A DNA stretch of 62,144 nucleotides, counting the filler, from Porpidia crustulata (lineage: Eukaryota): assembly GCA_964255105.1 (NCBI GenBank). It is 15 parts of 15 records of this genome, joined end to end, with 100 filler letters (N's around TTAATTAATTAA, not from the genome) between each part and the next. Parts side by side here need not be neighbours in the genome. Positions count along the whole stretch, not along the records: positions 20,856 to 24,913 come from CAXUWE010002161.1; 14 more parts are not named here. One strand, given 5' to 3'. The translations under genes and the position numbers were made by a program. Below the pieces are notes generated by a model. That model ran no database searches. It was not told where the DNA came from and saw only the letters and a program-made list of their open reading frames with translations. Below, in pieces: positions 8,722-30,050 of this stretch. Positions within the stretch are counted from its first letter, which is position 1; each line of letters starts with the position of its first letter.

Positions 8722-11700
8722 ATGGGTGTTACAGGTCTTTGGACTGTTGTTCAGCCCTGCGCTCGTCCCATCAAACTCGAGACTCTGAACAAGAAGCGTC
8801 TGGCCATCGATGCCTCCATCTGGATATATCAGTTCCTCAAAGCTGTACGCGACAAAGAGGGCAATGCTCTTCGTAATTCTCATGTCGTAGGATTCTTCCG
8901 CCGTATCTGCAAGTTGCTTTTCTTCGGAATTAAGCCAGTCTTTGTGTTTGATGGTGGAGCACCAGTACTGAAGAGACAGACAGTCAGTGCAAGGAAGTCA
9001 AGAAGAGAAGGAAGGAGAGAAGATGCCGTTCGAACAGCTGGAAAGCTATTGGCGCTACAGATGCAGAGAAGAGCAGAAGAAGATGATCGGAAGAGGAGGG
9101 ACGAAAGGGATCGGCCTCCAGTTGAGGCAGCAGAGGAAGAGGTCCCAGATGATCTTGTTTACGTCGATGAGCTGCAAATGACCGCGCAGGAGCGGCAGCA
9201 GAATCGGAGATTCAAGAAGAAGGATGCGTACCATCTTCCACAGCTGGACGTTAGTCTAGAGGAGATGGGAGCACCGAACGATCCACGAATAATGAGTCAC
9301 GAAGAGCTAGAAGAATATGCAAGACAATTCCACACTGGTGAAGATGTTAACGTCTATGATTTCAGCAAGATTGACTTTAACAGTCCTTTCTTTTTAAGTC
9401 TACCTGCAAGTGACCGTTATAATATCCTCAATGCTGCGAGATTAAGGAGCCGGCTAAGGATGGGACATAGCAAGGAGCAATTGGATACTATGTTTCCTGA
9501 TAGGATGGCTTTCTCCAGGTTCCAGATTCAAAGGGTCGCTGAGAGGAACGAGCTTACACAAAGACTCATGAATCTTAACGGCATGAACGGAGAAGACGCG
9601 ATGTTTGGCGTGAACGGAGGGGGACGGATTGCAGGGGAGAAGGGAAGGGAATACGTCCTGGTCAAAAATGACGGTGTAGAAGGTGGATGGGCATTAGGTG
9701 TCGTAAGCAACAACGGTGAGGGAGGTAGAAATAAGCCTATCGATGTTGAAGGCCCAGGAAAGGACGACCTTACACAGGTAATTGAAGGTGATGAGTCAGA
9801 TGATGGTTTTGAAGATGTTCCAATTGAGGGCCTCAATAGATTACCAAAACGCTCCGCAGTCGGCACTGCTGGCCTCGATTTCGAAGATGATACCGGATCT
9901 CTAGACCTCATGGAGCGAAGGCGAGCCTTGTACGAAGCACGACAGGCAGCAGTAGGCATCGAAGTGCCGGGAAAGGCACTAGAAGTCAGCAATGCCAACG
10001 ATGAACGCGATTCGCTCTTTGTGCCCCAGGTTCTCGATGAAGTATCCGGTCAACAAGATGAAGAAGAAATGGATGGCTTATTCGAGGATGTTCCAACTGC
10101 AGCACCTGACGAGGACGAATATCTCAGTCGAGCCGTTGCTATGTCATTGGAACAACCTGAGCAAGATGACGATATGGGCGATGTGGCTTCAAGCGCCGCA
10201 AAGCCTAATAATGCAGCCCTGAAAACTCATAAGCGGCTGGAATTCAATCAGCGAAGTGCTCAGGCTGGCAGAGATGTCGCTCATCAATTTAATGCACGAG
10301 CGCATCGGGTCGCCCCTAAACCGTTTCTAGAGGACAGCGAGGATGAAGATGACCTCAACCTTCAAGCATCATTGGAAGACTCGAGATCTACCATGCATAA
10401 GTCTCAAGGGCCTCGAGGTTTCAGTCCACAGGTGATGAGTCCTAGAAAGCCTTCTCCCCTGCAAATTACCCCAATGCAGAAGACAACATTCAGTGGGCCA
10501 CTACCGTTCGAGTCGATCAATTTCGGCAAATCGGTACTAGGTAGGAAGAAGACCAAAGCAAAGGAGGAGGGAGAAGGGGGCTTCGAGAAAGAGCCGTCGC
10601 AGGCGGAGAAAGAACCTCAGCCGTTACCTCCTTGGTTCTCTAAAGACGTGCTTGAAGGCAATGCTTCTCAAAAGGCCTTCGAGGAGAAAGAATTGGAAAG
10701 CGTTGTTCCCAATTATAGCGCTCAGATGATCGAATATCAACACATCCTCAAGAGGCAGCAAACAGGAGAGATAATTGACCTCGACGTACCCGCTAGAACA
10801 ATCGATGATGTTATTGAAGTTGCCACCTCTAGCGATGAGCACGAGGATGATGATATTATAGAACAAAAAAAGCCAACTGACTCGGAGGTGAGGATGGGCG
10901 ATATCGCGGATCAAGTTCGCGCTGAACCCCCAATATCTGGATCACCTAACCATAATGATTGTCCATTAAAGGATAGCCGGGCCAACTTTCAAGTGACCTC
11001 CGTGGAGAGTCAACAAAGTAGCGAGGAGTCCATTGAATGGGAGGAGAGCGACCTGGAAAACGACCAAGCAAAGTACAATCCTATACTTAATACCCAGCAC
11101 CCCGCTGGCGGTATCATGCAGGCTCCACCATCGAAATCTCCCTCACCCGAGTTCGAGAACGTTGGAAATCTAGACTCGCCACTTCAACTTCCTATTAATG
11201 GTCCATCTCTCGATAGCCCAGAACGACCACCCCCACCGCTTCCTCAAGCAGTGTCGCTTGATCTGCCAGCCGAGGATTCTGACGCCTACTCTGATCCCGA
11301 AGATGAATATCTCATGCGTCAACTCGCCGCCGAAGCCTCTGAACATGCTCGTTTCGCCTCCACACTCTCGAATAATTCCCATCTCCACTCTGCTCAAGAT
11401 TACGAAACCGAACTTCGTCAACTCCGCAACCAACAGAAGAAGGATCGCCGTGATGCTGACGAGGTCTCACACATCATGATCACGGAATGCCAGCAGCTGC
11501 TCAAACTGTTCGGACTGCCCTACATCACAGCACCCATGGAGGCGGAGGCACAATGTGCGGAACTGGTGAATTTGGGCTTAGTAGATGGTATTATAACGGA
11601 CGATAGCGATATCTTCCTATTTGGAGGGACTAGGGTGTACAAGAATATGTTCAACCAAGCCAAATATGTTGAATGCTACCTTTCTTCCGATCTCGAGAAG

Positions 11701-20855: not shown

Positions 20856-21086
20856 GGGTAGGAGGGCTTTGTGGTCGAGGTGGTGGCGGACGAGGTGGGA
20901 TTGGAGGGTGGAGGCGTGGAGGTAGGGGGTTAGGCCTGGGAGATGGAGGTGGCGGAGGTGGTGGCGAGAGGAGTTTTGAAGAGGTCCCATGAAGGGGGCG
21001 CTGGAGCTTTGGAGTTGACGATTCTGATAGGGTGGCCCATCAAGACGTTGTCCCTCGTGGAGGGAACCGACATACGGCCTAAACAT
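20856..21086 (-). CDS. LIP2: Lipoyl(octanoyl)transferase LipB/Lip2, N-terminal fragment
   Basis: LRHLHLPGLTPYLHASTLQSHLVRHHLDHKA resembles the N-terminus of Pezizomycotina Lip2. Start at 21086 or 20990. Cut by the contig start. Confidence 0.6.
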
Positions 21087-21455
21087 AAGCCCGACGCGAC
21101 GAAGAACAGTGGACAACCGTGACAACCTAAGATCCCAGAAACACCGGGAAGCTTAGTGACGCTTTAGCTCCACGCTATCCTTACTCGTTACCACCCCTCA
21201 TCGGACCATTACACTTAGGGTTAGGGCTCAAAGCTAGTACAGCCCTAAACCTGCTACGTAGAGGTAGTGATCCGATGAGGGGTGGGAACGAGTAGCTATA
21301 AACAGTCGCTGCGTAAATAATTTCTCGGGCGCGGTATGAACCGAAGCTGCTCTCCGGACTCCATAGATACACTGGGTCAACGATTTTGCTCTTTCTTTCG
21401 TGAAACATGGTCTCCTATCTCAACAATTGGTTGACGGGCACCTAACTGCTATGTG

Positions 21456-22996
21456 ATGGCAGAAAATCTTCCTGTTGCCGACGTAGTCTCATGGGATGCA
21501 CAAAATGTTTTCGCTCGTTGTCCAATATGCGGCGGCCTTCACCGGCATGGAACAAGTGGCAGTTATTCCTCCACAAACACCAGGGCGGCACACTGCCCTC
21601 CAACCTTTGGCCTACCTCACCGGTACCAAATACGCTTCCCATTTGATACGACCACTCGAAGGGTGGCGTATTGGATCCATAAGGAAAGGAAGCGGTTCTT
21701 TACCGTTGGCGCAGAACCAGACCCGGAAGAAGTCTCTGAGCTGGCAGAACCACTAGAATCGCAACTTGATATCGGCAGTGGTGACGAATCCTTAATACTG
21801 CTGGAAAGTGGGATAGAAGAGAGGACGGTTTCGATCCAGATTGAGGGGAATGACCATATCTCTTGGACGGAAAAGACCATCGTTACAGCAGTAAGCAATA
21901 GTGTTCTTGGTGAAGAAAGAGAAATCAGAAGATTTCTTGCCACATCTGCCGACGCTGAAGTTCTGGTCATGGGAACACACTCCTGTCCATGGTGGCAGTG
22001 GAAAGGCATCCCTATATGGTAACCCTGTTTTTGGACCGCGGAGCCCGGATCAACAACCGAAACAACAAAGGGAGAACACCACTCATGGAGGCCGCCCTTT
22101 GGGGTAGGTTCGAAAACACTCAGATTCTCCTGGCGAGAGGGGCAGACAAGGAGGCCAAGGACAGAGAAGGCCGCAAGGCCATCGATTTTACATCGCAGAG
22201 CGATGTAAATGCCGAAGAGCGACATATACGCGCCGGTGGAGTTTACAAGGAAGATACATTTGTCGCGGACAAAGAACGAAAAACTATCGCTAGAGTGCTC
22301 CGCGGCACCGTGATATCCGCTCTTACGCTTGACCTCTCGACTCCGAAGAATTCGAGCTGCGAACATCATTCTTTCCACAACTCAAGTAGGACATCGGAGA
22401 TAGTTCTCTCTGCGCCTGTTGCCACTTTTCCTGTTCGAAGCCTGGCAAAAACGATTGCTCAACTTGTTCGTGGGAGTCCTTTCCCTCCAGTGGACGCGAT
22501 GAGTGGATGGGCCCATTATGACGAGCAGAACACCACTATCAGTGGCAAAAACTGGACGAATGAAGTCTTCGTCATATGCGAATCAATTGGGCACATCCTG
22601 GCGCCGGTTCCTGAGATCGATCAAGGGAGGCCGGGGAGGTGGCACGCATGTCATGCTGAGAAACAGTTGGTGGCGTTCTTCGTCGCTTACCATGTTTTTC
22701 TTAAGGATGAATTGCTGAATGAAGATGAGATCGAAGAAGAGAAAAGCAAGTACGAAGACGAGAATATCCTTCGTCCACTGAGAGGAGACATCACACAAGA
22801 ACAACACAATAGATGGCGGGAGCAAATGGAACGTAAAGAGGAGAGAAACTTGAAGGAACTCTACCTTGTCCGCCCACCAGTCACTCTACAGGAAGCAACA
22901 ATCCTAGTCAGTAGGGTGGTATGTGCTGACTGTGAGACTTTTGTCCGACAAGTAGAGTTAGTGCTTGGACTTTCATTTCGACTCCAGAGATGTTGA
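21456..22996 (+). pseudogene. Zn-finger + ankyrin repeat + DYW/SsdA-like deaminase, frameshifted at ~21966
   Basis: N-terminal CPICGGLHRHG...AAHC; ankyrin repeats GNTLLSMVAV and GRTPLMEAALWGRFENTQILLARGAD; deaminase motifs HACHAEKQL and SRVVCADC. Two overlapping ORFs (21453-22022, 21989-22996) in different frames. Confidence 0.8.
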
Positions 22997-23047
22997 ACTA
23001 AGCATTATTTAAAGGCATGAATTAATTTATCAAGTTCGCTTGATGCG

Positions 23048-23242
23048 ATGGACGGTGGAACAACCGGACTGCGGGAGCTGGCCATGGAGAGGAATCGATT
23101 GAGCGCAATGACGCCGATGCTGTATGAGGCCAATATCTTCCAATTCTCGTACACTGCAGCCGCGCTCGACTGGATGAGCGTTATTGGTGCAACTAACGCC
23201 GGATTCTTATGGAGTTTGAATATATGTGGAAGGAACGGATGA
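23048..23242 (+). pseudogene. Degenerate fragment of a fungal lineage-specific domain (LYxxNxFxF...IGxxN motif)
   Basis: TPMLYEANIFQFSYTAAALDWMSVIGATNAGFLWSLNI resembles a motif common in F-box-associated fungal hypothetical proteins. No intact gene model. Confidence 0.3.
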
Positions 23243-24339
23243 ACAGTCGTTACGAGATGCTGCGAACTGCCCAGGAAGCCGAAGCATGAGGCAAAAGGGC
23301 TACGGTGGACGGAACCGGTTGCTCTGGAATCCGAAACATCGGCCGACGAACTTGCCCAGGATATGAGCGAATGTCCCAGCCTTTCGCACGGGCATCTATA
23401 GAGACGACGAGACAAGCACCATTCCAGAACTAATTCGAAGAAACGCAAGAAGGGTTATTCAGGAGCTGATGGAAGGGTCTAACAGCAGCGCTCATTGCTC
23501 GCGGAACAAATAACACTGGTGATATAGGGCCGACCTGTGGGTCATTCTGGTCCATTGTGGCGATGAAGCACTCAACGTTGAGCAAAGTTCTACGGCCATT
23601 ACGCTATTGCCAATGAAAACGGTACATCGTTCGACCGCCATCTTAATCGATATTTGAACATGACTGATCAAGATGGCAGAGGTAGACAGACAGCGTACAA
23701 GTTCACAAGGCGACGTCTACGACATATTCGTTCCAACACGCCTCGGAGTATCTATACTGCAGTCTCCTATGAGTGAGCTGGTGTTCAAGAAGTCGAAGAG
23801 CAAGGAGACTGGTCTCGTTGGAAAGATGCAGGAAATGTACCTGACCTGCCTTATCTCTATTATTTGGGATTCGAAATCCGGCGACTATCGTTTCAGCCAA
23901 AGCAAGGCAGGAGATGATCGCGCCAATACGAAGATTTATTTCACAATGGCAGCAAGCTTGGTTGATGATAGTAAAATCTCTGACCATATGGTAGACATCC
24001 TTCTGAAATCGAAGCGTCTTTTGGGGTTCAGGCTTACATGAACGCAGAAAATTTAGAGGCAATCCACAGACTTACGACGCCACCTGCAAATTCGCGCATG
24101 TGACATTCTTCCCACAGATAGAGCCCTTGTAACGACTCTCCGGTCCTCAAAGCGCAAAGTATTCTGTATGTCTCGGGCGGCTAACTGTCAGAACCCACAG
24201 GCTTCATATGCTCAACGACATGATCGGAAGTGTTCTCTGACATTAGATTTGCCGTCCACAGACTGAGTGCAAAAGCTACAGCCCATAAAATCATTAGATT
24301 TGGGCACAAATCCGAGATTCGCTCGCATCTCTCACGTGT

Positions 24340-24650
24340 CACGTTCTTTCGTAAATCATTAAAATCGAATCTTAATTAATATAGAGAATATTCATGAACT
24401 TTTTTAAATTGTTATGAGTTTTTCTTTTGTTAACGAACGTAGTCATTAATAACTGACCTATTCTTAAAGTTCAATAAAAGATTATCGAATTTAAGGTCTT
24501 GTGTTTTACTGTTAGTCGATCTATCATTCAAGCATGTTTAAAAGTGCACTTATCAGTCAATATATATGACGTGACTTTCCGAGTAAAGAAAATTAAGATC
24601 ATTTAAAACAAGCTTTAAGAAAGCTTTAAGGATAGTCGATGACAGTATCT
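24340..24650. repeat. AT-rich, TpA-rich tract, probable RIP-degraded repeat remnant
   Basis: Abrupt AT enrichment with many TAA/TTA triplets relative to the flanks. No ORF. Confidence 0.4.
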
Positions 24651-25346
24651 CATTGTGGTCATAATGTAAGTGATCGGCTATTCTCGCCTTATAAAGCAGC
24701 CGCTGCTCACCTTTGAGGCTAGAAATGGAAGGGGGGGAAATTTCTCGTCTGGTGGTCGAGTCGTGATCATGTCTAGAGGGGCACGAGGGGTAGACACTCA
24801 AAGGAGACTTGATAAGGCTAGCCTTACGGCTCGTTTACAAACGGCTTCTTCTGATTGACAGATCACACCGATCCAACCATCATGGCTCCTACACCTCCCA
24901 CAGAATCCAAACCNNNNNNNNNNNNNNNNNNNNNNNNNNNNNNNNNNNNNNNNNNNNTTAATTAATTAANNNNNNNNNNNNNNNNNNNNNNNNNNNNNNN
25001 NNNNNNNNNNNNNGATCTAAAACGTTCTATATTTATCGTAACATTGGATGAAGTATGCGTATTCCCCCGTTATACATGTAATCGTAGCTTCTCTCCTCTC
25101 GAGCCGTAGACCCAAGGATGAACCAAATTACAAAGGAGTTAGATAGCTTATACACCGCCGATGCTAGAGAGCGCCATTGTAAATATGCTGCCAGATCTTT
25201 ATGTTGTTCCGTAGTTAAGCAGTACGTACCAGGCACTTCTCCGGACGAACACCTTCTCAATCTCATCGAGATCTTTTACATTCTCCGAAAATTAGTAGCG
25301 CTTGAGTTGAGCGATCCTGGTTTACCAAAATCAGCCGAGAGGAACC

Positions 25347-27635: not shown

Positions 27636-28875
27636 TTACTGGCAAAAGTGGCTCAGATCCAAATGAGGGGGTAGTTCTGCGGACTGTAATGATGCGTAAG
27701 CAGTGTTCGTCTCATGAAAATTGCAATCACGATGAAATATGCCACTATGAGGTATCCCGTGTGTCCGTAAAGCATATGTGAATTGGTGAATTGAACGGGT
27801 TTCTACGTTTGAGGGTGGTATACCTTCAGTAGTGCGAGACAGGGGTAACAGGGATAAATCCTCGACGCGAGCAACCATCATTGCGTGAATCAACTCTTTG
27901 GTGTATGCTGCAGCCTACACGGATTCTATAATCAGTATGGCATACTCATGGAGTCACAAGGGCTTTCAGATGCAGAATCCCTAACTTCAAAGAACTTACC
28001 GCGACTGCGGCGTAACTTTGCCACCGTTTATCCTTATGAGAGTCGGAGTAATCGCAGATTCCACGTATGACGAGACATGGAAACTCATTCATCAATCCAG
28101 CAGCCTCCATCTCAAAGCACATCACACCGTGTTGTTCTTTGAGTTGATCTCGTTTCGCTGCGTCTCTCATCACAACATTTCCAGAGGCAATGATCCCGTG
28201 AAAGACCACGGGCTCATCTTGCGTGCGGCTGTTCCGAGATATTACATGGCGAATATCACAAGCCTCACAAGAATTATCATCTCTCTGATGGATGTATTCG
28301 GGCTTGAATAAGCGGTCATGTGCTTGTCCAGGGTTGTCGAAAGACTCTTTCATCTTTGGATGCTCTCGATACATTGAGTGTAGATTATTTATGATGCTAC
28401 TACCATCCACTAGAGATCTTGCCGCCACTTCGTTTTTGAGGTTGAGGAGTTCCGTAGGAGGTGGGGCTAGAATCGAGGTTATCGAAATTTCCCCATTTTG
28501 CCTGCGTCGGCCTGAGTCGTACTGAATGACACTGTCGCTGACCACGATATCGCCTAGGCGAATGTCATTCCTTCTGCTGGGAACCCCCCCTCCAATGCCT
28601 ACCATGAAGCGGTATTTCACCTTCGGGAATGCATAGCTCATGTGTATCGCCGCTGCGGTGGCCGGAGTCGTCCCGGCACTTGACAGGCAGGTTATAACAA
28701 TATTGTGGCAGCCGATCCGTCCAAGAGTATATATGTTCTTGTCGAGTGGGTCCTTCTGCAAGCTACTACTATCGTATTTTTCGTCCAGCATCGCATGCGC
28801 CGCGGCCAGCTCAACTCGCAGAGCACAAATCCATCCCACCACGAAGTCTTTGGGATCCATTGCCGTACGAGACAT
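27636..28875 (-). CDS. PNP_UDP_1 (Pfs / purine nucleoside phosphorylase) domain protein of the fungal NLR-effector type
   Basis: VGWICALRVELAAAHAMLDE, MVGIGGGVP, DIRLGDIVVS, FEMEAAGLMNEFPCLVIRGICDYSDSHK. After an intron (~27915-28000) it reads AAAYTKELI. Confidence 0.88.
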
Positions 28876-30050
28876 GGATCCTCCAACGGTAGTCTAGCAG
28901 CTAGCATTAAAGTGACAGCGACTTAGGATATGTCGTCCCATTTCGTTGACAGTATAAATAGAGCGATTGTGACGAGGACCGTGGAACGCCATACATCGAT
29001 TATGAGGCCAACATGACAGAAAGGTAGCCGCTCAGTCGAGTTCTGTCTGACTCTCGGGGTGGGTGGAGNNNNNNNNNNNNNNNNNNNNNNNNNNNNNNNN
29101 NNNNNNNNNNNNTTAATTAATTAANNNNNNNNNNNNNNNNNNNNNNNNNNNNNNNNNNNNNNNNNNNNGTTTGGAGGGGTATATAGATTTTCTGTTTGAG
29201 TTTGGTGGGGCTGGCGAAGGAAAATCGTGAAATTTATCTTCCAATTTAATTCCTCCCACTCTCCGTAGACGCGAACCAAGAAATGCTTCGTTCGTTTTCG
29301 CCTCAAGCTCTAAGGATGAACCAATGCTGCTCTAAACTAAGCCGAAGATGGGCGTCTCGGAGTACTTTCTGGGCCGGCCCTGAGACACGTCAGCCGGTTC
29401 AGAGACGTTGTAGACGAGAGTCTGAAATGACTAAGATTAGAAGCCACGGTCGCATTCAATACAAAGCCATACAATAACCTTGTCATCAAGTTGACTATGA
29501 AGGAGGAACATTTCATGGAGCGTGTATGAAGCATGCAATGGAGTCTGTAGGACGTTTGGTAGGAGTCACCTAGGGGAGCCATGCAAGGCAGTAAAGTGTC
29601 CAACTTACGAACTCCACGCTCTTTAGTCAGACCTGACCCAGGGCCAGCGAATCCCGTCATCTACGATAGATCACTGAAAGCTTCCTGTTTTCATGCAAAG
29701 AATCGCGATCTCTCTGATGGGAGCCTTGAGAACAATGATTGGTTCATCTTCAGCCAGAGTGGCTGACCTTCAGCGTGATTGGAGACGATCCCCTGAAAGA
29801 TGGTTGTACAAGAATGGCGATATCCATATTGATAATCAATAATCAAACCGTATCTATTTGACTATCTTATCTTTCAAGATATCTCGCGAGATTATCCAGC
29901 CCAATTTAATCTGATGGAATGTCGAAACCTCAACTCTGAAAGAACACATCGACATCACTAGATCTTAAAGACAACAGTGACTATCAAGATTTTATCGGTC
30001 ATTAGCAGTTACCTTGCGACCACTAATTGACCTAGACTGAGATATTTGCT

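What the first reader, a model, noticed from the sequence alone, without database searches (positions are those of the whole stretch)
21456..22996. Zn-finger/ankyrin/SsdA-DYW-like deaminase: candidate fungal mutator, editing or defence enzyme
Seen: an N-terminal CxxC-x3-H...HC metal-binding motif, 2-3 ankyrin repeats, and a C-terminal domain with HAEKQL and VCADC separated by an acidic, helical-looking insert. The gene is intronless. Established: HxE + CxxC defines zinc-dependent deaminases, and the HAEK signature marks the DYW-like clade, which includes plant organelle C-to-U editors and the bacterial ssDNA toxin SsdA. Ankyrin-fused ascomycete members are known computationally, but I know of no established function. 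Inference: a sensor (Zn finger/ANK) plus deaminase effector module acting in genome defence, allorecognition or anti-microbial conflict. This is the best candidate here for an uncharacterised system.
Basis: partly seen in the sequence, partly recalled or inferred. Interest (0 to 1): 0.78.

Follow-up and report, generated by a model that had tools for sequence, protein, structure and literature searches.

The report
Broken fungal ankyrin-SsdA-type deaminase gene
This is a recently broken copy of a fungal gene family that was predicted in 2011 but apparently never tested; it joins a bacterial-toxin-type cytosine deaminase to ankyrin repeats and an unnamed zinc-binding domain, and evolves like a gene used in conflict with viruses or other fungi.

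Summary
The motifs are real, but the gene is broken. It lies in two frames (21456-22022, 21959-22996); 16 bases are missing near 21964, inside the ankyrin domain. A ~93%-identical relative has those bases and no other indel in the coding stretch. The intact form is a ~520-aa ascomycete family (80 hits): unnamed Cys/His domain, four ankyrin repeats, deaminase (Pfam SsdA_C, E 1.8e-21). Iyer et al. 2011 listed it as the ankyrin-fused DYW-like clade; my searches found no experiment. It is closer to the ssDNA toxin SsdA (KT, SGW, HAEK, CxDC kept) than to plant editors (no PPR, DYW end or targeting leader). Family-level results: intact copies are under purifying selection (dN/dS 0.13-0.28); 11 of 28 independent relative loci are broken; no partner gene is shared; one relative has two allele classes differing around the substrate groove; one pair suggests transfer between fungal orders. 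Best reading: an intracellular, probably self-gated cytosine deaminase used in non-self or antiviral conflict, lost here recently. Activity, substrate and gating are inferred; zinc-site geometry was not measured. New member of a known, untested kind.

The parts
21182..21294 (.). MITE-like element: 31-nt terminal inverted repeats, TA at both ends, 161 bases upstream of the start codon
   Evidence: arms 21182-21212 / 21264-21294, 90% complementary; matches on 15 other contigs of the own genome; shared ends
21456..22022 (+). ORF A: 5' part of the gene (N-terminal domain, acidic linker, first ankyrin repeat), then an out-of-frame tail to a premature stop
   Evidence: (54 of 80 homologs match)
21465..21728 (+). 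Unnamed beta-rich Cys/His domain (CxxC-x3-HxH...RxxHC...EIDK-like), likely one zinc site; no Pfam, PHROG or PDB family
   Evidence: in the folded relative P0009 residues 11-90 have pLDDT 76-94 and seven strands
21864..22312 (+). Ankyrin domain, about four repeats, split by the frameshift between repeats 1 and 2
21960..21975 (+). Break: 16 bases missing relative to relatives, between two short direct repeats; changes the frame
   Evidence: residue count against P0004, P0074; run X2 has 16 extra bases at 21964; run X1 matches the window letter for letter
21959..22996 (+). ORF B: 3' part of the gene (ankyrin repeats 2-4, beta-meander, deaminase domain)
   Evidence: mean pLDDT 89.6, pTM 0.65
22448..22510 (+). 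KT pair and SGW motif (equivalents of SsdA K289/T290 and S300-G301-W302)
   Evidence: roles in SsdA from PMC12494967 passages
22652..22663 (+). HAEK: zinc histidine and catalytic glutamate
   Evidence: H and E in 78 of 78 motif-bearing homologs
22700..22882 (+). Acidic helical insert between helix 2 and strand 3; His-to-Cys spacing 90 residues against 20-21 in bacterial relatives
22922..22933 (+). CxDC zinc cysteines at the start of helix 3

Best explanation
This locus is a recently inactivated allele of the ascomycete ankyrin-fused, SsdA-type (DYW-like) deaminase family. Shown: the architecture, the 16-base loss, the catalytic motif set, purifying selection in intact relatives, frequent independent loss, no shared partner gene, no secretion or organelle leader. 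Inferred: (1) intact members are zinc-dependent C-to-U deaminases of single-stranded nucleic acid, ssDNA somewhat more likely than RNA (about 0.7 for polynucleotide C deamination); (2) lacking the bacterial immunity gene, they are kept off by their own N-terminal zinc domain and ankyrin repeats, or by tight expression, and are switched on when these sense a non-self or viral cue (about 0.35 for intramolecular gating); (3) the outcome is hypermutation of an invader or death of the affected hyphal cell, so the gene pays only while the enemy is present and is often lost (about 0.5). This copy yields at most the N-terminal fragment and is almost certainly not making the full enzyme (about 0.9).
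For: Break. Homology to SsdA: Pfam SsdA_C; family profile hits PDB 7jtu at E 1.4e-5; profile-profile with 10 bacterial-type relatives 99.3%, E 7e-21, aligning KT, SGW, HAEKQL and CxDC. In 78 of 80 homologs with the motif: H and E 78, SGW 76, KT 70, aromatic at the Y342 position 78 counting His; SsdA mutants K289A, S300A, W302A, Y342A lose activity (PMC12494967 passages). dN/dS 0.13-0.28 over the gene in 7 of 8 intact pairs (1 saturated); deaminase core 0.11-0.22. Birth and death: of 28 independent relative loci 11 broken, 11 intact, 1 mixed, 5 unclear; a second, more decayed paralog in the own genome. No neighbour shared between independent loci (25 loci, ORFs of 170 aa or more), whereas bacterial relatives have Imm5 or SUKH genes directly downstream (4 of 6 tested over the cut-off). 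Two allele classes at about 6:7 among 13 full-length members of the P0050 cluster, with 9 linked changes in 57 residues around the SGW and substrate loops and other blocks reassorting. Cryphonectria-Colletotrichum sojae 87% identity against a family median of 39%.
Against: No activity, expression or phenotype data for any fungal member was found. The zinc-site geometry was not measured: all four fold searches were filled by ankyrin matches. Fungal proteins usually end 19-34 residues after CxxC, with one strand, against 35-66 in bacterial relatives; removing SsdA's C-terminal strand kills it (PMC11789416 passage), so the sheet must be completed another way or the enzyme differs. SsdA's H332, Y334 and R336 are P, I and Q in this copy and vary in the family (Y334 aromatic in 25 of 78), though they also vary among bacterial relatives. 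No hypervariable repeats or NLR domain. The allele classes come from one cluster of unnamed assemblies (15 of 33 members listed) and could be paralogs or sister species; the F. oxysporum cluster's two classes run the whole gene, as lineage structure would give. Some broken loci may be assembly errors. Excess of derived changes in the window copy was not significant (16 vs 10, p 0.33).
Confidence: 0.5

Rival explanations
1. Organelle (mitochondrial) mRNA C-to-U editor, with ankyrin repeats in place of PPR repeats, as Iyer et al. 2011 raised.
For: DYW-like clade membership and repeat-plus-deaminase layout.
Against: 81 of 91 full-length relatives have at most 15 residues before the first strand, and only 4 have a long basic leader; none ends in DYW. 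No DYW_deaminase hit. SGW, which de Moraes et al. tie to DNA-acting toxins, is kept. A needed editor would not be broken in about half of the scorable loci.
Confidence: 0.07
2. Self-directed mutator or anti-transposon enzyme that deaminates the fungus's own exposed ssDNA (RIP-like genome defence or diversification).
For: SsdA chemistry works on chromosomal ssDNA in E. coli. Intracellular protein; purifying selection on the core.
Against: Patchy, often broken, usually one or two copies. Only 10 of 91 have a classical NLS-like motif. No chromatin domain. The gene itself shows no RIP signature. RIP depends on the RID methyltransferase (reference title seen; otherwise recalled).
Confidence: 0.15
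3. Selfish or hitch-hiking toxin-like gene (killer allele or mobile-element cargo) that spreads by transfer or drive and decays once fixed; little benefit to the host.
For: Derived from a toxin domain; varied insertion contexts; inter-order identity anomaly; high loss rate.
Against: No linked antidote or shared neighbour. No mobile-element gene recurs next to it (one DDE_1 hit among 68 neighbour ORFs). Reassorting allele blocks at middle frequency fit balancing selection better than sweeps.
Confidence: 0.15
4. Metabolic or tRNA-acting deaminase, or a zinc-binding scaffold without deaminase activity.
For: Short C-terminus and a large acidic insert could change the substrate; weak profile hit to cytidine deaminase (E 0.3).
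Against: Residues that bind the DNA backbone in SsdA (K289, S300, W302) are nearly invariant. Housekeeping enzymes are not lost this often.
Confidence: 0.08
5. The split is functional or an artefact: ORF B is made on its own from a Met that abuts ORF A's stop, or the 16-base gap is an assembly error.
For: ORF B keeps all catalytic residues and breaks only 6 of 88 strongly conserved columns, like intact relatives. A Met lies just before ORF A's stop. Run X1 is probably the source, at depth 8.7, so it is not independent.
Against: The deletion sits between short direct repeats, as slippage gives; a contig of the run has the same letters. The break cuts a folded ankyrin stack, and breaks in relatives fall at many different places.
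Confidence: 0.05

Closest known systems
Ascomycete ankyrin-fused DYW-like deaminases (Iyer, Zhang, Rogozin, Aravind 2011, PMC3239186; passages read)
   Same: Same clade and layout: HxEK, conserved K, ankyrin fusion, large fungal insert; proposed independent transfer from bacteria. In my tree the 41 long-insert or other rows and the 13 short-insert bacterial-type rows fall on two sides of one branch, 100/99 (midpoint root only).
   Different: This copy is frameshifted. The passages I read do not mention the N-terminal Cys/His domain. In the model the insert lies between helix 2 and strand 3, not between strand 3 and helix 3 as their table says. Their suggested role (organelle editing) fits poorly.
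SsdA / BaDTF2 interbacterial ssDNA cytosine deaminase toxin (PMC7901873, PMC12494967; PDB 7JTU, 9C63; Pfam PF24120)
   Same: KT, SGW, D-x-G-x-x-G-x-aromatic loop, HAEKQ, CxDC. SGW was described as unique to the bacterial toxin members; it is in 76 of 78 fungal-type homologs.
   Different: No PAAR/RHS or other delivery domain, no adjacent immunity gene, His-Cys spacing 43-173 instead of 20-21, a shorter C-terminus without strands 5-6, an added beta-meander, ankyrin repeats and an N-terminal Cys/His domain.
Plant and Naegleria PPR-DYW organelle RNA editors
   Same: Same deaminase clade; repeat domain followed by a C-terminal deaminase.
   Different: No PPR, no DYW end (0 of 91), no PF14432 hit, no targeting leader; SGW present.
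Fungal het / NLR non-self recognition genes (PMC11138114, abstract only) and the fungal OTT_1508 deaminases proposed for that role (PMC3239186 passage)
   Same: Works like them in its evolution: birth and death, possible locally confined allele classes, intracellular effector domain of bacterial toxin origin.
   Different: No nucleotide-binding domain, no HET domain, short non-hypervariable ankyrin array, low copy number; a different deaminase clade from OTT_1508; no incompatibility phenotype known.

Membership tests
Ascomycete ankyrin-fused DYW-like clade (Iyer 2011) | HxEK motif in helix 2 and CxxC at helix 3 | tested here: met
   HAEK at 22652, CADC at 22922; both start helices in the model
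Ascomycete ankyrin-fused DYW-like clade (Iyer 2011) | Conserved K before strand 1 | tested here: met
   KT aligns with bacterial KTV; 70 of 78 homologs
Ascomycete ankyrin-fused DYW-like clade (Iyer 2011) | Fusion to ankyrin repeats | tested here: met
   Pfam Ank; fold matches Z 15-16, rmsd under 2; split by the frameshift here
Ascomycete ankyrin-fused DYW-like clade (Iyer 2011) | Large fungal insert between the His and Cys motifs | tested here: met
   Spacing 90 here, 43-173 in 72 of 92 scorable relatives; placed before strand 3 in the model, after it in the paper's table
DYW-like clade as a whole (Iyer 2011) | Basic residue in the strand 2-helix 2 insert; D at the end of strand 4; strand 4/5 C-terminal hairpin | tested here: inconclusive
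   R336 position is Q here (R in 18, K in 4 of 78). This copy has no D there and only one strand after helix 3, like most of its fungal relatives. Whether the upstream beta-meander completes the sheet could not be checked without coordinates.
BaDTF2 / SsdA toxins | SGW, HAE and CxDC motifs; no DYW end | tested here: met
BaDTF2 / SsdA toxins | Delivery domain (PAAR/RHS/secretion) on the same protein | tested here: not met
   Only Ank and SsdA_C by Pfam; 0 of 46 with a hydrophobic N-terminus
BaDTF2 / SsdA toxins | Adjacent immunity gene | tested here: not met
   No family hit in the two downstream ORFs scanned, no shared neighbour among 25 fungal-type loci, no Imm5/SUKH among 68 neighbour ORFs; ORFs under 170 aa were not compared. 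Bacterial relatives do have them.
BaDTF2 / SsdA toxins | Aromatic cluster H332, Y334, Y342, F343 that shapes ssDNA | tested here: inconclusive
   P, I, W, H in this copy; variable in the family and in bacterial relatives
BaDTF2 / SsdA toxins | Deaminates cytosine in ssDNA | not testable with these tools
   needs an assay
Zinc deaminase fold | His, Glu and two Cys meet in one zinc site in 3D | tested here: inconclusive
   Confident model with the expected order of strands and helices, but no coordinates were available and the fold searches listed only ankyrin matches
PPR-DYW organelle editors | PPR array, C-terminal DYW, PF14432 match | tested here: not met
PPR-DYW organelle editors | Organelle targeting leader | tested here: not met
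   leader of at most 15 residues in 81 of 91 (crude count, no dedicated predictor)
PPR-DYW organelle editors | PG box | not tested
   no plant sequence was aligned
Fungal NLR / het genes | NACHT, NB-ARC or HET domain | tested here: not met
   no such Pfam hit in either ORF or in the listed domains of 80 homologs
Fungal NLR / het genes | Balanced allele classes | tested here: inconclusive
   seen in one distant cluster, 13 proteins, no DNA or species check
Fungal NLR / het genes | Cell death on non-self fusion | not testable with these tools
   needs crosses or expression

The most novel reading that the evidence does not exclude
Filamentous ascomycetes have an APOBEC-like innate immune enzyme, built by domesticating the SsdA bacterial toxin domain. 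A new Cys/His zinc domain and ankyrin repeats replace the bacterial antitoxin as a built-in switch; the enzyme hypermutates mycovirus, plasmid or non-self nucleic acid, or kills the fused cell; and its substrate/inhibitor face is held polymorphic by balancing selection while the gene moves between fungal orders.
Probability: 0.3. Interest if true: 0.78.

Novelty: new member of a known kind. Interest (0 to 1): 0.4.

Why it matters
This copy matters little: it is a null allele. The family matters more. I recall no established APOBEC-type antiviral or non-self deaminase in fungi, and my searches found only a 2011 prediction and one passing sentence for this family. It keeps the SsdA DNA-binding motifs, exists intact in a saprotroph with a public genome (Aspergillus wentii, P0012), and has natural intact and null alleles, so the question can be tested directly. 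It is also an untapped set of eukaryotic SsdA-like enzymes (203 clusters at E<=1e-30, 896 at E<=1e-3 including bacterial-type ones), possibly self-restrained, for base-editor mining.

Tried and rejected
Intron at the break: rejected, no room. A single-sequence PDB search with the deaminase part found only chance hits; the family profile was needed. N-terminal domain: no Pfam family (best E 0.0014, scattered zinc ribbons), no PDB match, no PHROG. The 8 short proteins found look like fragments of the same fungal family. The ESM Atlas gave the same two small phage/bacterial hypothetical clusters for two queries (0.93 with low recognition; 0.75): a lead only. Complex prediction of N-terminal half against deaminase domain gave no verdict, so gating is untested. 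No RNA holder listed. Imm5 search of the own genome found nothing, but neither did its controls. Relaxed selection in this copy: pN/pS 0.73 over the first 132 codons against run X2 (9 synonymous and 21 non-synonymous changes, sorted by eye from the 30 listed; not different from neutral, p 0.27), polarised changes not significant. RIP indices of the gene are ordinary. Longer fusions: 2 found, one probably two merged genes. Papers: nothing for the Cryphonectria gene id, no Starship-deaminase link in the listing, no fungal names in the text-held supplements of PMC11789416 and PMC12494967; figures are not held and Iyer's supplement was not opened, so a fungal member may appear there. Earlier scan findings: none. 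Genes on other contigs of the window are not neighbours.

Full report
1. What is there. The window is a chain of ~4-kb contigs joined by 100-base N linkers; the gene lies on G000:C2161, window 20856-24913, in a fungal assembly of 22.9 Mb in 2,447 contigs. Two overlapping + strand frames make up the gene: ORF A, 21456-22022, and ORF B, 21959-22996. ORF B has ankyrin repeats and Pfam SsdA_C (E 1.8e-21); ORF A has no Pfam hit. A search with the C-terminal 261 residues gave 80 homologs; the named ones are filamentous ascomycetes and most are 460-600 aa. Of the 80, 54 also match ORF A. A profile search found 896 clusters at E<=1e-3 and 203 at E<=1e-30. The ESM Atlas holds a 127-member, all-eukaryote cluster with this layout.

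2. The break. Against P0004 and P0074, ORF A's homology ends and ORF B's begins at the same bases, and the residue count implies 16 missing bases, so there is no intron. Laying public contigs settled it. Run X1, probably the source and so not independent, matches the whole stretch. Run X2 has one contig (depth 21.6) over 21361-23304 with 132 differences and 42 gap letters: 16 at 21964, the other 26 after the stop codon. The gap lies between two short direct repeats, as replication slippage gives (inference). None of the 30 listed X2 differences in the first 132 codons makes a stop (by eye); the rest were not shown. ORF B breaks only 6 of 88 strongly conserved columns, as intact relatives do, so the loss is recent. 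A 113-base MITE-like element sits 161 bases upstream of the start. The genome also holds a second, older relic with two in-frame stops and no SGW; no intact paralog was found, in an incomplete assembly.

3. Anatomy of the intact form. The folded relative P0009 (mean pLDDT 83.8, pTM 0.72) shows a seven-strand N-terminal domain, a disordered acidic linker, about four ankyrin repeats (fold matches over residues 128-304), a beta-meander and the deaminase. The N-terminal domain has invariant Cys, His, Arg and Cys and no known family; a single CCHC-type zinc site is my inference. The window's ORF B folds with mean pLDDT 89.6 and the expected order: strand, SGW loop, HAEK helix, helical insert, strand, CxDC helix, strand. 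I could not measure the zinc site, and fold searches were swamped by ankyrin.

4. SsdA, not plant DYW. The family profile hits SsdA (7jtu, E 1.4e-5), and aligns to ten bacterial-type relatives at 99.3% probability across KT, SGW, HAEKQL and CxDC. Among the 78 of 80 homologs with the motif, SGW is in 76 and KT in 70; the Y342 position is Y, F, W or H in all 78. Yin et al. show K289, S300, W302 and Y342 are needed for ssDNA deamination (PMC12494967, passages). De Moraes et al. call SGW unique to the bacterial toxin members (PMC7901873, passages); it is not. Against a simple equivalence: H332, Y334 and R336 are P, I and Q in this copy and vary in the family, as they do in bacterial relatives; the His-Cys spacing is 43-173 against 20-21; the tail after CxxC is mostly 19-34 residues against 35-66, lacking a strand that SsdA needs (PMC11789416, passage). 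None of 91 full-length relatives ends in DYW, 81 of 91 have no room for a targeting leader, and 0 of 46 have a hydrophobic N-terminus. In a tree of 54 cores with the insert left out, the 13 short-insert bacterial-type rows separate from the other 41 at 100/99 (no outgroup, four long branches).

5. How the family evolves. Eight intact pairs give dN/dS 0.13-0.28 over the gene (7 computable), 0.17-0.31 in the N-terminal domain and 0.11-0.22 in the deaminase core. Of the 45 fungal-type loci (L002-L046; the 22 weaker, mostly bacterial-type loci were left out), grouped at 90% identity into 28, 11 are broken, 11 intact, 1 mixed and 5 unclear. The search needed an intact A[CS]HAEKQL, so older relics are missed; several breaks recur in separate assemblies. 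No neighbour recurs among 25 loci other than between near-identical loci, and neighbours are mostly ordinary genes; bacterial relatives have Imm5 or SUKH genes just downstream. The Cryphonectria parasitica protein is 87% identical to that of Colletotrichum sojae, more than C. sojae to C. sublineola (83%), against a median of 39% over 285 named pairs; transfer between orders is my inference and lacks a housekeeping control. In the P0050 cluster (35% identical to the window; 13 full-length of 15 listed, of 33), two allele classes at about 6:7 differ at 9 linked sites within 57 residues around SGW and the substrate loop, with no site passing the same count between residues 202 and 373, and with the N-terminal and ankyrin blocks reassorting. 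Locally confined balanced alleles are reported for het genes (PMC11138114, abstract only). Linked sites are one event, so the Fisher tests overstate this; paralogs or sister species are not excluded, and the F. oxysporum cluster's classes span the whole gene.

6. Mechanism. Most likely, intact members are intracellular cytosine deaminases of single-stranded nucleic acid, restrained by their own N-terminal half or by expression in place of an antitoxin, and deployed against viruses, mobile elements or non-self nuclei. Catalysis is inferred from conserved residues and selection; restraint from the absence of an immunity gene; the conflict role from loss, transfer and allele patterns. None of these is shown by experiment. 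Rivals: self-mutator (0.15), selfish cargo (0.15), metabolic or inactive (0.08), organelle editor (0.07), functional split or artefact (0.05).

7. What is known. Iyer et al. 2011 describe the ascomycete ankyrin-fused DYW-like proteins with a large insert as an independent transfer from bacteria and ask whether they edit organelle RNA (PMC3239186, passages). Databases already name relatives after SsdA_C or DYW. Eight searches showed no experiment on a fungal member; the library lacks most subscription papers, figures are not held, and Iyer's supplement was not read.

8. Verdict. Observation confirmed; a broken new member of a known but untested family. The copy is ordinary, the family question is real and testable with natural intact homologs. 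Interest 0.40; the fungal APOBEC-like immunity reading has probability about 0.3 and would deserve about 0.78.

Noticed in passing
window 21182-21294: MITE-like element with 31-nt inverted ends flanked by TA and a TTAGGG-containing interior; related copies on 15 other contigs of the own genome at 71-95% identity.
   Followed up: partly
L070:856-1707 (G000:C368, about 10830-11680): Second, decayed paralog: N-terminal-domain-like stretch running into a deaminase with HVEK and CxxC, two in-frame stops, no SGW and no recognisable ankyrin.
   Followed up: partly
window 27946-28893 (-): Stand-alone-looking PNP_UDP_1 phosphorylase ORF (E 2e-12), a domain I recall as a fungal NLR effector; it is on another contig, so not a neighbour.
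   Followed up: no
window 23300-23600: Several contigs of run X2 match this downstream stretch separately, suggesting a repeat or decayed gene; ORF 23664-24041 has no Pfam hit.
   Followed up: no
P0079, P0172, P0195, P0217: Other fusions of the deaminase: to protein kinases (P0079 lacks CxxC; P0172 lacks SGW), to a long N-terminus without ankyrins (P0195), and to a fungal transcription factor (P0217); some may be merged gene models.
   Followed up: no
L034, L036-L039, L043-L046, L029: A divergent subfamily in which SGW is replaced by SGY and the N-terminal cysteine spacing differs; still under purifying selection.
   Followed up: partly
L047, L048: Long-branch HAEKQL proteins without ankyrins that group with the fungal side of the tree; source lineage not determined.
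   Followed up: no
P0002, P0003: The two closest protein hits (89% and 60%) start inside or after the ankyrin domain, which may mean further broken alleles or miscalled starts.
   Followed up: no
window 21456-21860: Two independent queries with the N-terminal domain gave the same small phage/bacterial hypothetical-protein clusters in the ESM Atlas; weak lead to its origin.
   Followed up: partly
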